In this document: positions 5,167 to 54,890 of the stretch, in pieces
Position numbering within the stretch: position 1 is the first letter of the stretch
Layout of the letters: each line of letters starts with the position of its first letter
Assembly (NCBI GenBank): GCA_951406725.2
Contig: OX597820.1
Coordinates: 123,566,001 to 123,630,000 of the forward strand
From: Octopus vulgaris
Lineage: Eukaryota
Direction of reading: 5' to 3'
Length of the DNA stretch: 64,000 nucleotides
The notes under the pieces: generated by a model
What the model was told of the DNA's origin: nothing
The model's database searches: none
The model's input: only the letters and a program-made list of their open reading frames with translations
Program-made: the position numbers and the translations under genes

Positions 5167-5488
5167 TCGTTTTTGGATTTGGTTTGCAAGATTCATTATA
5201 TGAGTTCGTGTGTTGGAGCATATTCTGTTGTGTCTGGGGAGAGTCATTTTCTTTTTGTGCCTTATTATGTAACACACTCACCGGTAAAATTTTCCTTTTT
5301 TCTTATTTTTATTTTTCTAAAATTTTCGTTCCTCTTGCAACCTTTTCAATAGTTTTCAGCTATTGAAATGGTTGCAAGACGGAACAAAAATTTTAGAACA
5401 ATAAAAATAAGAAAAACGTGGAAAATTTACCCGTGAATGTGTTACATAATAAGGCACAAAAAGAAAATGACTCTCCTCCCCAATAGTA
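5167..5488. mobile_element. Foldback non-coding element between (TA)n tracts with two head-to-head HHR motifs
   Basis: Arms 5236-5352 and 5360-5481 are reverse complements. Minus-strand motif 5317-5352 reads CTA-TTGAAAA-G-GTTGCAAGAGGAAC-GAAA-AT-TT-TAG. Confidence 0.75.
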
Positions 5489-6474
5489 CATATATATGTA
5501 TATATATATATATATATATATATATATATATATATATATATATATATATATATACACGGGGGGGGGGCGCATTTGTTTATTGTGTATGTGACTGTGTGTG
5601 TGTATGAACGTGTGTATATGTATGTGTGTGTGGTTTGTGCATATCCAGGAACAGCTTGTTTTATTAGAAATATATAAAGCTGTCGAACCTGACGTGAACG
5701 TAGTGATAATCAGAGAATGAGAGAAAGATGTGGTAAGCGGGGAACGTTCCGTTGAATGGAAATGAAAATCTTGCTGGACATTCAGAAGAAAAATATAGTT
5801 TCCAATTGACTAAAAATTCCTATCTACATTAGCCAAATTGCAATTATCTTGAAAACTACAAATGGTCTATTTTGTAGGACTTCTTAAATAAAAACGATTT
5901 TATTAAATGATAGAGACCAACAATGATTATCATAGCGGAGCTACGTAAAATAGCTATGTTCTAGACTTTGATGCGCAATATGGTGAGAAAAGCATAGCAG
6001 ATAAGATTTAGAAAATAGTAGAATATGTGAATCAAATTTGCTCTTTGTAGACTCGATAAAAAGTTTCCCATTTTAAAATAGTCGCTGAAACTGATTACGA
6101 CTCGTTTAACTTGAAAGATTAAATTAAGAGCCAAAATAATAATTGGACTTAGAAAAAAGAGAAGCCAAAAGCGGAACAGACCACGCCATGGAGAAAGCCT
6201 TATAAAAGACATGTATATGTATGTATGTATGTATGTCTGTCTGTATGTATGTATGTATGTATGTATGTATGTATGTGTGTATGTATGCATGCATTATGTA
6301 AGTATGTATGTATTTATAAATGAGTATGTATGCATGTATATATATATAAACATAAATAAAAAATATAAATTCCACATATATATATATATATATATGCACA
6401 CACACACTCATACACACACACACACACACACACATATCCTCCACAACATACCCCCTCCTAAAAAAAGACCACAG

Positions 6475-7414
6475 AATGAACACAATCCTCCAAACACACA
6501 CGATCATAAAAAGCAAAAGACAGCCTAGATCCATGAAAAGTCTCCTAACACAAGAAAAAACACCAAACTTCAAGATTTTCCCCCTCTACCAATTTAGGGA
6601 CGATACAACCTCGAGACAATGAATAAGTAAAGAAAATCTCTTTATTACAAAATACAAGCCACTTCTTAACGGGTCTACGACAAACAATTAATATACCTCA
6701 ACTTCAGAATAAAAGAAATATATACACACACAAATATTACACTCCATAGAATCCATTACTAATCAGCCCCATCACAGCTATACTTACACCCATTCATATT
6801 CTCCCTTCTCTGTTTTTTCTTCTTCTTCTTCCTCTTCTTCTTCATCATCATCATTATCATCATCATCGTCGTCATCATCATCACCACCATCATCACCACC
6901 ATCTTCTCCTTCTCCTTCTTCTTCTTCTTCTTCTTCTTCTTCATCATCATCATCATCATCATCAACATCGTCATCTTCTTCTTCTTCTACTTCTCCACCT
7001 TCCACACCTTGTCACTAATGTCTTTCAGTATAACGCCTACGCAAATTCCATAAACAATTCCTGAATTGAACTGCGACACTGTCAGCCAGTGACCATTCAA
7101 AATACGACCATTAAGGCATTCCCAGATTTCCCCACCCCTCTCCACATCAGCCTCCTTATTCTTCACCTATCCTACCAAGAACTCAAAACGACCTCGAACA
7201 CACAAGTGCAAACAAGGGAGTCAGAGAAAGGCAGAATGCTACTTATATCTGAACACTACTACAGAAATATTCTTTTAAAAAACGTTTCTTCTAATTTTTC
7301 TAAATTTAATTATTTAATCGTTACAGTTGAAAAGGTCTCAAAATGACCGAAACCGGTACTGAAAGATTCACTATAAAATTATCTTAGCATTTTCTATTTT
7401 TGACTTGTTTTTTC
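6475..7414 (+). mobile_element. Penelope-like 3' fragment with GIY-YIG core deleted, low-complexity 3' UTR and terminal HHR
   Basis: MNTILQTHTIIKSKRQPRSMKSLLTQ joins directly to PNFKIFPLYQF...KENLFITKYKPLLN. Homologous to the 32.4-32.9 kb and 53.7-54.2 kb copies. Ends in (TA)n. Confidence 0.7.
7324..7361 (+). ncRNA. Minimal type I hammerhead ribozyme motif, U3-A8 variant
   Basis: CAG-TTGAAAA-GGTC tcaaaat GACC-GAAA-CCGG-TA-CTG. Confidence 0.7.
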
Positions 7415-7971
7415 ATATATATATATATATACATAGATATAGATATATACAGATACATGCACATACACACTTACAAATACATGTGAATATGTAAATGTAT
7501 GCCCGAGGAGAGGTAAGTGCTTTGGCGTCCTCGGAACTTTTGTAAAATGAATTATTAAATCAATCTGTTGTTAAAGATATTCCTGGTACAAGCACAAACA
7601 TATGCGCGCGCACGCAAACAATCATATTTATATACATACAATTACCTACACACGAGCGCGTTGACACACGCACACAGCACATGCATACATACACACATAT
7701 CAATTCGATGGCTTATTCGTGTTAGATTTGAAATTGAATATGCTTGTCGACCTTGTATTTCATCAATGGAGAACAACTTGTTTCAGACAATTGGGTACTT
7801 GCAACACACTCGATTCATTAGTATAAAGAGACTAAGAAATCCGGGCTTTCGAAATCAGTGTCTCTCCACTGACTACGATATGTCAGATTACTGGATCTAA
7901 CAAGCATCTTTTTGCCTGTTTATAATTTCAGCAAGCAAATTGTTTGTTATACATTCAAATATACGTATATA

Positions 7972-8250
7972 TAGGGAGATTTTAAGAAGAAAACAAAAGA
8001 CGAAGACAGGTGGTGTACAAAACAAACAGATGTATTAAGATAACGCTCAAGAAAAGAAAAAGTATTTTACGTTTCGAGCCTACGCTCTTCTACAGAAAGG
8101 GACACAGAAAAATAAGGAGAGAAAAAATGTGTGTAGTGGCTAACGATCTATCATGGCGACTGCCAGACAGGAGGGCCACACGCGAGGGGGAGGAAGTAGG
8201 GGAGATAACAAAGTAAAGACGATCCCCAACACGAAGGTGCGTGTGTCTAT
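7972..8250 (-). mobile_element. Short pLTR-like repeat family B with an A6U HHR motif (8064-8099)
   Basis: Homologous to 9790-10000 and 57320-57522. Minus strand reads CTTT-CTGTAGA-A-GAGC gtag GCTC-GAAA-CG-TA-AAAT. Abuts a TA run. Confidence 0.7.
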
Positions 8251-52955: not shown

Positions 52956-53104
52956 TGGTTTCAAACTTTGGATCAAGGCCAAATAAATCTGAGTGTAAAC
53001 CCGTGTGTTCAACCCGAACGAATAAGATGGTGATGATGACGATGATGATGATGATGATGATGATGGTGATGATGATGATGATGACAATGATATATTTACA
53101 TGTA

Positions 53105-53578
53105 CAAGGGTGGACTGAAAACTAGATAGGCTGACCCTAGAGAGATGCTAAAGCTGAGAAATTTTTGCAAGCATTAATTTCAACTTTCTTATTAATAACT
53201 GCATTGCTTCTTTCCAGGTAAACTGCAATTTGACTGTTCAAAGAAAACTTCAAAAATACCTGGAGTGACTTCTCTTGAACAAAGACGAAATATGGCACCG
53301 TGGTGTAATCAAGTACTTGCAGAAAAGAGTTTAGTCTCAAAGGACATTTATACAGACATGGTCGTACCATTAGGGCACGATGATCAGCTTTATCAACAGA
53401 GCAAAGGCGGGCAGCTAAATTTAGGAAGGGAAGAATAAGTTCTGGAAACGGCTTATTGACTGGACGATTTAGAGCTGCCTCCACCGACGAGACATCGATA
53501 TTGTACGCCACATGGTGGATGACAGACGATTGGCTATAAATGAATCACCCAAAACATTTAGCACAAACTGGCCATATT
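53105..53578 (+). mobile_element. Mariner 5' fragment
   Basis: TA|CAAGGGTGGACTGAAAA TIR-like start, then WHRGVIKYLQK..KDIYTDMV...AAKFRKGR HTH relic. Confidence 0.75.
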
Positions 53579-53712
53579 TATCACTATCTATCTATCTATC
53601 TATCTATCTATCTATCTATCTATCTATCTATCTATCTATCTATCTATCTATCTGTCTTTCTCTGTCTCCGTGTCTTTCTGTCTGTCTGTCTATCTCTCTG
53701 TATATGTATATA

Positions 53713-54890
53713 TACACCATCATCATTAAAAGTAAACGGCAACCAAAATCCTTGAAAAGGATTTTAACCCAAGCTAAACTGCACTCAACATCAACCACAA
53801 AACCAGCAGTTAGAAAATGTGGAAAGCCCAACTACGGAATCTGTGTCATCTTGGTAGAAGGTTCAGAATTTATACTAGAACAAGGACATCAGTTCACCAT
53901 TAGAACAAACTTCACCTGTGCATCAGAGAACTTAATTTACGTCTTAACATACGCAGGTTGCAATAGGCAGTATATAGGCCATACAAAAAATAGCTTACGT
54001 AAAAGGATGGCGGTGCATAAATCCCAAATTAGAAACCCTGATTACCGGAAAATACCAGTCAGCGGACACATAGATAGACGTGCTTCAAGTATAATCCGAA
54101 ATTTACAACTTACCCACTTTACAAATTCAGTGACAGCGTAACCTTCACCCAACGCCAAAATAAAGAACTTTATTTCATCAAAATATTTAGACCAAGTTTG
54201 AACACCCTGAGCCAGGAATATTAAAACAAAACATTGGTCTTCCGAAAAGGAAAAATGAAATTCTACCAAAATCACTACGACTGCTCCCACTAGCACTACT
54301 ACTACAACCACCGTGGTCACTACTATTGCTACTACGATCAACAGTCCTCTACGACTGCGGCTGCTACGGCCACAGCTTAACTGCCACAACCCCAACCACC
54401 ACCACAGTTGCCAAAGCTACAACCAACAGTAACTGCTACTACCGCCATTTAAGCCACTAGACATACCGCTGCTGCTAGGACAGCCACAACTTAGCCGCCC
54501 CAACCAATAAGCTGCTGCAACCCCAACTATCACCATGGTTACTACTACTACGACCAACAATCACTACTGCTGCTACCATTCCATTGGAACACAAGGACGG
54601 TTCCTTTTGATACCAGCAAGAAACAATAATGAACTTCTGTACTACACGCAACTATAATATAGCGATTATACCAACTACCGACAAAATACCACCACATGGA
54701 TTCTATTGAGACCAGTAAGAAACAACTATGAACTTTTCTATTGCACTTTTCATAATATTTTTGATAAGGTTCGTTTTTCAAGAACCGAAACATGTAAAAT
54801 TCATAAGAAAATTAAAATTTATCTAACATAGTGGCGTTTTCAAACTTCTTTTTTACAAATATATACCCACTCGTATACGATCTACTCTTA
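53713..54890 (+). mobile_element. Penelope-like 3' fragment: GIY-YIG endonuclease, ACT/ACC-rich UTR, terminal HHR, (TA)n
   Basis: IIKSKRQPKSLKRILTQAK...CGKPNYGIC...FTCASENLIYVLTYAGCNRQYIGHTKNSLRKRMAVHKSQIRNPDYRKIPVSGHI. Confidence 0.88.
54757..54800 (+). ncRNA. Minimal type I HHR motif, U3-A8 variant
   Basis: ATTT-TTGATAA-GGTTC gtttttcaa GAACC-GAAA-CATG-TA-AAAT. Confidence 0.72.

What the first reader, a model, noticed from the sequence alone, without database searches (positions are those of the whole stretch)
5317..54800. Recurrent U3-A8 compensatory core variant in one ribozyme lineage
Seen: motifs at 5317-5352, 7324-7361, 29115-29151, 33242-33279 and 54757-54800 all read UUGANAA instead of CUGANGA, while their stems I and II differ in sequence but still pair. 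Established: C3 and G8 pair in the active hammerhead fold, and U3-A8 is a compensatory substitution. Inference: the covariation points to selection on catalysis. Three of the motifs lie at or beside copies of the same GIY-YIG Penelope family (6.5, 32.4, 53.7 kb). Searches for the literal CUGANGA would miss them.
Basis: partly seen in the sequence, partly recalled or inferred. Interest (0 to 1): 0.7.

Follow-up and report, generated by a model that had tools for sequence, protein, structure and literature searches.

The report
Known swapped-core hammerheads, five repeat families
The five motifs are worn or intact copies of a hammerhead RNA shape, predicted to cut itself, carried by five different jumping-gene families in one animal genome; their U3-A8 core swap is already in print, and genome-wide the pair usually stays matched but some families spread with it mismatched, so cutting is likely favoured rather than essential.

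Summary
Real, but a known variant and not one lineage. All five read UUGANAA. Only 7324 and 54757 are intact; 5317-5352 is on the minus strand. They belong to five families. Three (motifs 2, 4, 5) sit in pseudo-LTRs of three related Penelope families (50-67% endonuclease identity, one clade). Motif 1 is a ~200-nt non-coding element. Motif 3 is a ~350-nt retrozyme-like repeat whose family mostly reads C3.A8 (14 of 23). Natural U3-A8 cores were published in 2011, and in Penelope elements in 2014. Genome-wide pattern counts: U-A 5,813, C-G 1,523, U.G 795, C.A 324 (controls 115-248); about 89% are paired against 64% expected. One retrozyme family holds all four states as young subfamilies, with canonical C-G nested inside U-A. 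Another Penelope family swaps A3-U8 and G3-C8. Pairing is therefore favoured, but mismatched cores still spread, in line with published data that cleavage is dispensable for insertion in vitro. Cleavage was not tested. This scan noted the same variants several times before on other DNA.

The parts
5317..5352 (-). Motif 1: U3-A8 minimal hammerhead (extra G after A9, no loop 3, palindromic AAUU) at the 5' end of a ~200-nt non-coding element (family E); one mismatch in helix II
   Evidence: 25 of 25 family loci U-A
5238..5476 (.). Head-to-head inverted pair of family E copies; the plus-strand arm carries a more decayed hammerhead
   Evidence: arms 91% alike
6452..6688 (+). Family A Penelope linker/GIY-YIG fragment with an internal deletion
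   Evidence: 81-92% aa identity to the 784-aa RT-EN frame of L065
7324..7361 (+). Motif 2: intact U3-A8 type I hammerhead in the 3' pseudo-LTR of family A, sense to the ORF; predicted cut after 7358
28974..29294 (+). Internally deleted, terminally redundant monomer of a ~350-nt retrozyme-like family (D)
   Evidence: unit length 347-355 in L108, L112, L129; 43-46-nt terminal repeat
29115..29151 (+). Motif 3: decayed hammerhead (G12 is C); the family majority is C3.A8
31892..33006 (-). Family C Penelope GIY-YIG fragment (32398-33006) and 3' pseudo-LTR cut short before its hammerhead
33085..33351 (+). Inverted 5' pseudo-LTR of the family C copy; 67% like family A's pseudo-LTR
33242..33279 (+). 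Motif 4: U3-A8 hammerhead, partly decayed, antisense to the ORF fragment
   Evidence: 19 U-A, 5 C.A, 1 U.U of 25
53722..54138 (+). Family B Penelope linker/GIY-YIG fragment
   Evidence: Pfam PF01541 E 7e-5; 59% to family A
54757..54800 (+). Motif 5: intact U3-A8 type I hammerhead in the 3' pseudo-LTR of family B; predicted cut after 54796
   Evidence: 21 of 21 motifs in 20 loci U-A
8750..8794 (-).
   Evidence: 15 of 15 loci C-G; 8 of 15 with a Penelope protein match
38664..38725 (+).
   Evidence: Rfam Hammerhead_3 E 0.005, below gathering score

Best explanation
The five motifs are copies of type I hammerhead motifs carried by five mobile-repeat families, three of them Penelope-like retrotransposons, and their U3-A8 core is a known compensatory swap that likely keeps self-cleavage in the parent elements. 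Shown: the motifs, their families and copy numbers, their place in pseudo-LTRs, and the excess of matched 3-8 pairs. Inferred from the literature: transcripts through a pseudo-LTR or a tandem unit fold the core, two copies pair through the palindromic helix III, possibly helped by the element's own protein, and cut after GUA (GUC in motif 3's family, AUU in motif 1's); reverse transcription then pastes copies, often 5'-truncated and inverted. Inferred here: U3-A8 was inherited by families A, B and C from one ancestor and occurs separately in the non-coding families. The pair changes one base at a time through U.G or C.A states that can still be copied, so cleavage improves an element's long-term success but is not needed for each insertion. 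The window copies are fossils; three of five are damaged.
For: 2,410 matches, control 0. Near-full elements with RT plus C-terminal GIY-YIG between hammerhead-bearing repeats. Penelope protein matches beside 19 of 30 loci from the motif-2/5 pattern, 9 of 20 B loci and 7 of 25 C loci. A+B+C clade, support 0.99. Pair counts U-A 5,813, C-G 1,523, U.G 795, C.A 324; 89% paired after subtracting controls against 64% if independent. Within one retrozyme family 85 of the first 100 of 433 rows are matched (hand count). A3-U8 and G3-C8 swap within one Penelope family, 23 and 9 rows against 2 mismatched. Palindromes of motifs 2 and 5 give a 6-bp intermolecular duplex. PMC3088659 (passages): natural U3-A8, active in vitro per its ref. 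32. PMC4209133 (parts 1-2 of 4): U3-A8 in Penelope elements of Schistosoma, ~1,300 hits. PMC11167929 (passages): in a lizard Penelope element C3G and G8C each abolish cleavage, the double mutant partly restores it, cleavage needs the protein, and catalytic mutants still insert.
Against: No cleavage, expression or RNA end was observed. Copy counts are not independent events: one family supplies about 87 of the first 100 rows. Motif 3's family is mostly C.A and also has A.A at 10.1-11.1. C.A and U.G subfamilies are young (nearest copies 99-100% alike). Helix I is only 3-4 bp in motifs 2, 4 and 5, no monomer folds better than shuffles, and U3 could pair with A17 and trap the site, by analogy with the C3-G17 trap in PMC3884650 (my inference). 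No Penelope ORF was found near 24 other family E loci.
Confidence: 0.8

Rival explanations
1. Strict selection on catalysis in a single U3-A8 ribozyme lineage: all five descend from one swapped ribozyme, and mismatched forms are only decayed copies.
For: A, B and C form a clade and are U-A. U-A is also the basal state among the sampled retrozymes. One deep origin with later module exchange cannot be excluded.
Against: Flanks of motifs 1, 3 and 5 show no significant match to each other or to motifs 2 and 4. Motifs 1 and 3 have other architectures. C.A and U.G occur as amplified subfamilies with their own loop II signatures, some in 360-nt tandems. C-G is nested inside U-A in one family.
Confidence: 0.08
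2. The fold is kept as a protein-binding or priming signal for the Penelope enzyme, and cleavage is incidental; the 3-8 pair is kept for shape, not chemistry.
For: PMC11167929 (passages): catalytic mutants insert normally in vitro and no RNA-seq reads began or ended at the cut site. Mismatched subfamilies spread. Family D kept helix I and the palindrome while carrying C.A.
Against: U4, G5, A6, A9, the GAAA box and UH stay fixed in the families aligned, though my patterns also required them. The 3-8 pair forms only in the active conformation (PMC3884650 passages), and it recurs as all four Watson-Crick pairs.
Confidence: 0.1
3. The U-A excess comes from AT-biased mutation and founder effects alone.
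For: The window is 66% A+T. C7-G8 is a CpG in the retrozymes, so G8 to A is an easy change. A few families dominate the counts.
Against: AT drift does not give G3-C8, a return to C3-G8, or an odds ratio near 56 overall and 14 by locus within one family (loci are still related by descent).
Confidence: 0.04

Closest known systems
U3-A8 minimal hammerheads of Cercyon Penelope-like elements in Schistosoma mansoni (Cervera and De la Pena 2014, PMC4209133; parts 1-2 of 4 read, supplements not opened)
   Same: Same core swap, in pseudo-LTRs, mostly single or opposite-strand pairs, about a thousand or more copies, predicted to work as dimers.
   Different: Here U-A outnumbers C-G about 4 to 1 under my pattern (there ~1,300 against ~2,000, other descriptor). 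Motifs 2, 4 and 5 lack the extra base after A9 and keep a 4-nt palindromic helix III, like that paper's fly, rotifer and shrimp variants. Only motif 1 has the strict minimal form.
Natural core variants of hammerheads (Perreault et al. 2011, PMC3088659; passages read)
   Same: C3-G8 covarying to U3-A8 in nature.
   Different: The passages read give no family-level path and no A3-U8 or G3-C8.
Metazoan non-LTR retrozymes (Cervera and de la Pena 2020, PMC7229834, passages; bioRxiv 10.64898/2026.07.22.740005, passages)
   Same: Motif 3's family and its relatives are 350-360-nt non-coding units with a type I hammerhead, in tandems or terminally redundant monomers, beside autonomous Penelope elements.
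   Different: Cores are U-A, C.A, U.G or C-G depending on subfamily; circular RNA was not tested here.
Neptune/Nematis-type endonuclease-bearing Penelope-like elements (Craig et al. 2021, PMC8557442; passages)
   Same: RT with C-terminal GIY-YIG, a CX2-5CxxC linker, inverted 5' copies, (TA)n next to the 3' end, hammerhead near the 3' end, optional frameshifted ORF1.
   Different: Clade placement was not tested against reference elements.
PAc Poseidon element of the green anole (PMC11167929; passages)
   Same: Pseudo-LTR hammerhead in which the 3-8 pair matters for cleavage.
   Different: Canonical C3-G8; activity shown, protein-assisted, and dispensable for insertion in vitro.

Membership tests
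Type I hammerhead ribozyme | Core U4 G5 A6 A9 / G12 A13 A14 A15.1-U16.1 H17 | tested here: met
   Met in motifs 1, 2, 4, 5; motif 3 has C at 12, its family has G
Type I hammerhead ribozyme | Watson-Crick pair at 3-8 | tested here: met
   U-A in all five copies; family majority U-A for A, B, C, E but C.A for D
Type I hammerhead ribozyme | Helices I and II pair; helix III short and palindromic | tested here: met
   Full in motifs 2 and 5, one defect each in 1 and 4; compensatory change at 10.1-11.1 and in helix I between families A and C
Type I hammerhead ribozyme | Site-specific self-cleavage | not testable with these tools
   Only contigs were available; they cannot show RNA ends
Minimal Penelope hammerhead (min-HHR, PMC4209133) | Extra base between 9 and 10.1 and no loop 3 | tested here: not met
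   Met by motif 1 only; motifs 2-5 have no extra base and keep a 4-nt palindrome, so they match that paper's 'variant' class instead
Penelope pseudo-LTR hammerhead | Lies in the terminal repeat of an RT-GIY-YIG element | tested here: met
   Motifs 2, 4, 5. Not shown for motifs 1 and 3
Endonuclease-bearing Penelope-like element | RT followed by C-terminal GIY-YIG | tested here: met
   L065 784 aa: RVT_1 E 3e-8; GIY-YIG E 1.5e-4, just under the Pfam cut-off
Neptune/Nematis clade | CX2-5CxxC linker before the GIY-YIG domain | tested here: met
   C-x4-C-x2-C in families A and B, decayed in the C copies
Neptune/Nematis clade | RT phylogeny groups it with reference members | not tested
   No reference sequences were fetched
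Non-LTR retrozyme (motif 3) | 170-400-nt non-coding unit with type I hammerhead, tandem or terminally redundant | tested here: met
   347-355-nt unit; homologous to 360-nt tandem families
Non-LTR retrozyme (motif 3) | Expressed as circular RNA | not testable with these tools
   No read-level RNA data
   Only motifs 2 and 4 share flanks (67%, E 5e-11); endonuclease identity between A, B and C is 50-67%

The most novel reading that the evidence does not exclude
This genome records the catalytic 3-8 pair of a ribozyme turning over in steps: all four Watson-Crick pairs occur as mobile families, canonical C3-G8 re-arose from U3-A8, and mismatched C.A and U.G intermediates spread as young subfamilies. 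That would be a natural mutational series for asking how much cleavage Penelope-type elements need.
Probability: 0.55. Interest if true: 0.55.

Novelty: new member of a known kind. Interest (0 to 1): 0.3.

Why it matters
The finding as written is a rediscovery. Two things around it are useful. First, descriptors fixed on CUGANGA would miss most hammerheads matching my pattern in this genome (C-G is 1,523 of 8,455 raw matches), so published counts for such animals may be far too low. Second, whether Penelope hammerheads must cleave is an open question (PMC8557442 and PMC11167929, passages). One 360-nt family here offers C-G, U-A, U.G and C.A cores on mostly 80-99% identical backgrounds with different copy numbers, a ready-made test set.

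Tried and rejected
Rfam: none of the five motifs among the 150 listed of 215 matches; the list is dominated by microsatellite hits to miRNA models. Intron idea: an acceptor-like AG directly precedes U3 in families A and C, as described for fly Penelope. The GT seen upstream in the window's C copy is not the family state, and contigs of 4 runs guessed to be RNA showed no matching joint; left open. Run search: no RNA holder listed; contigs cannot show cut ends. Contigs of 4 runs from four coded organisms cover motif 2 and list no other letter at 7327 or 7332; a missing row is not proof of sameness. Monomer folding gave no support. The automatic alignment of five motifs misaligned the cores and was not used; no R-scape-type statistic was run. 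The tree of family D is star-like and cannot say whether U3 arose once or many times. The first retrozyme tree suggested C-G to C.A to U-A; larger trees with outgroups reversed the direction. C-G loci hold longer tandems than U-A loci (about 2.9 against 1.3 rows per locus), but age confounds this. A within-family A count was not obtained. Three key papers were not held (Przybilski and Hammann 2007, Nelson and Uhlenbeck 2008, and a 2017 RNA Biology paper on Penelope hammerhead variants that I recall); rates for each 3-8 pair and any earlier report of natural A3-U8 or G3-C8 could stand there. Supplements of PMC4209133 and PMC3088659 were not opened and may list such variants.
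Full report
Observation. The window lies in a 2.8-Gb, microsatellite-rich animal-type genome. All five coordinates hold UUGANAA in a type I hammerhead layout. Motif 2 (7324-7361, plus) and motif 5 (54757-54800, plus) are intact. Motif 4 has a C.U mismatch at 10.1-11.1 and a broken loop 3 palindrome, motif 3 has C for G12, and motif 1 is on the minus strand with one helix II mismatch. A strict descriptor finds 2 motifs in the window against 1 in 60 local shuffles; the bare heptamer occurs 103 times. 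No monomer folds better than shuffles, as expected for motifs with an unstable helix III; the palindromes of motifs 2 and 5 give 6-bp intermolecular duplexes.

Families. A pattern built on motifs 2 and 5 has 2,410 exact genome matches and 0 control matches; 87 of the first 100 rows are of motif 2's type and 13 of motif 5's (hand count), and all 30 fetched loci have U3. Family A (motif 2) is a Penelope-like element: L062 and L065 show hammerhead-bearing repeats around an RT plus C-terminal GIY-YIG frame with a C-x4-C-x2-C linker, and 19 of the 30 loci have a protein match. Family B (motif 5): 21 of 21 motifs in 20 loci are U-A, and 9 of 20 loci have a protein match. Family C (motif 4) is an older family: 19 U-A, 5 C.A and 1 U.U of 25, with A-U at 10.1-11.1. 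In the window it is the inverted 5' repeat of the minus-strand fragment at 32.4-33.0 kb, a standard Penelope arrangement (PMC8557442, passages). Endonuclease-region identity among A, B and C is 50-67%; they form a clade with support 0.99 in an unrooted tree of 16 copies. So they are three families that probably share U3-A8 by descent. Family E (motif 1) has the strict minimal form, with an extra G after A9 and no loop 3; 25 of 25 loci are U-A, copies start about 12 bases before U3, run about 200 bases and are often head-to-head; no Penelope frame was found within 1.5 kb of the 24 other loci. Family D (motif 3) is a 347-355-nt terminally redundant unit homologous to tandem retrozymes. Of 25 loci, 2 were second copies at one site and were dropped; the other 23 all have A8, with C3 in 14 and U3 in 9, although the search was seeded with the window's U copy. 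Only motifs 2 and 4 share flanking sequence. The C3-G8 motif at 8789 belongs to a fourth, more distant Penelope family (15 of 15 C-G; 8 of 15 loci with a protein match, about 37% identity in the endonuclease region).

Covariation. One pattern with positions 3 and 8 set in turn gave U-A 5,813 (control 248), C-G 1,523 (129), U.G 795 (131) and C.A 324 (115). After subtracting controls, 89% are matched against 64% under independence, odds ratio 56. The pattern requires G10.1 and C11.1 and a 4-nt loop 3, so it omits families C, D and E, and copies are not independent events. A within-family view is more telling. One 360-nt retrozyme family has 433 matches; the first 100 rows are 43 C-G, 42 U-A, 8 U.G and 7 C.A (hand count), and most states carry their own loop II sequence. 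In a tree of 37 chosen loci with both positions masked, the C-G copies form a young clade (support 96), sister to C.A (90-94), both sister to a U.G subfamily (90-93), all nested in U-A copies; outgroups keep this order. Two paths are equally short: U-A to C.A to C-G, or U-A to U.G to C-G with C.A as a later CpG loss. Recombination between subfamilies was not tested. Either way, single-mismatch cores spread recently (nearest copies 99-100% alike, some in tandem). A purine-3 search (462 matches, control 297) showed another family with 23 A3-U8, 9 G3-C8 and 2 mismatched rows among the first 100; 11 of 20 fetched loci have a Penelope protein match and helix I is typically 6 bp. All four Watson-Crick pairs therefore occur as families.

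Mechanism. Established: the 3-8 pair forms in the active fold (PMC3884650, passages); U3-A8 is natural and reported active (PMC3088659, passages); Penelope hammerheads cut weakly and as dimers (PMC4209133, parts 1-2 of 4). In the anole element each single 3 or 8 mutant abolishes cleavage, the double mutant partly restores it, cleavage needs the element's protein, and catalytic mutants still insert in vitro (PMC11167929, passages). My reading (0.8): the parent elements use these motifs as slow, dimeric, probably protein-assisted self-cleavers that trim or circularise their RNA. The benefit is enough to restore a matched pair over time, yet a mismatched unit can still be copied for a while, perhaps cut in trans or used uncut. 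Cleavage of these RNAs is not shown. U3 could also pair with A17 in families A-C and slow them, by analogy with the C3-G17 trap (inference). Rivals: shape-only role (0.1), single strictly selected lineage (0.08), mutation bias alone (0.04).

Known and new. U3-A8 in Penelope hammerheads was described in 2014, with about 1,300 hits in Schistosoma, and natural U3-A8 in 2011. Searches for natural G3-C8 or A3-U8 returned one paper, with a lab-made G3-C8; searches showed no account of the stepwise turnover in their listings. Three relevant papers were not held and supplements were not opened, so absence from print is not established. Earlier notes of this scan, unchecked AI notes, report U3-A8, purine-3 cores and mismatched subfamilies in this and other genomes; my results on these points were obtained before or apart from those notes and are not strengthened by them.

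Verdict. Observation partly confirmed, interpretation partly supported, new member of a known kind, interest 0.3. The best lead is the four-state retrozyme family as a natural test of whether cleavage is needed.

Noticed in passing
L062:4357-5664 minus and L062-L065 at the ORF junction: Family A has a 436-aa ORF1 with no Pfam match that overlaps the RT-EN frame at a conserved U UUU UUA heptamer (4 of 6 loci scanned), a likely -1 frameshift; PMC8557442 notes frameshifted ORF1 in some Penelope elements.
   Followed up: partly
window 7300-7326 and 33215-33245: A pyrimidine-rich tract ending in AG lies directly before U3 in families A and C. If it is a splice acceptor, splicing would replace the 5' strand of helix I and could switch the ribozyme off. 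No donor or joint found.
   Followed up: partly
L266-L285: Penelope family whose pseudo-LTR hammerhead reads A3-U8 or G3-C8, with A17 and a 6-bp helix I.
   Followed up: partly
L170-L172, L226-L231, L237-L239, L173-L175: Amplified retrozyme subfamilies with C3.A8 or U3.G8 cores, some in 360-nt tandems.
   Followed up: yes
L132-L155 (family of window 5238-5476): Many copies begin at nearly the same point about 12 bases before U3, at the base of a bulged helix I, and sit head-to-head with an inverted partial copy.
   Followed up: partly
window 38529-38764, 39020-39166, 39454-39552, 22729-23339, 18781-19325, 23509-23727: Further palindromes or inverted repeats; the first holds a decayed C3-G8 hammerhead, a relaxed scan found none in the others.
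   Followed up: partly
window 20-1561 and 34857-35198: A 431-aa frame and a second 3'-end copy that look like a LINE retrotransposon end (recalled resemblance; no family scan run).
   Followed up: no
window 60213-60695: A 160-aa frame that looks like a non-LTR retrotransposon fragment (recalled resemblance).
   Followed up: no
window 15072-15464 / 55250-55639 and 36582-36975 / 48109-48511 / 21510-21982: Two other dispersed ~400-nt repeat families, 88-93% alike.
   Followed up: no
L062:1-1128 minus: A diverged family-A-like ORF1 starts right after the 3' hammerhead, suggesting a mixed tandem of two related Penelope families.
   Followed up: no
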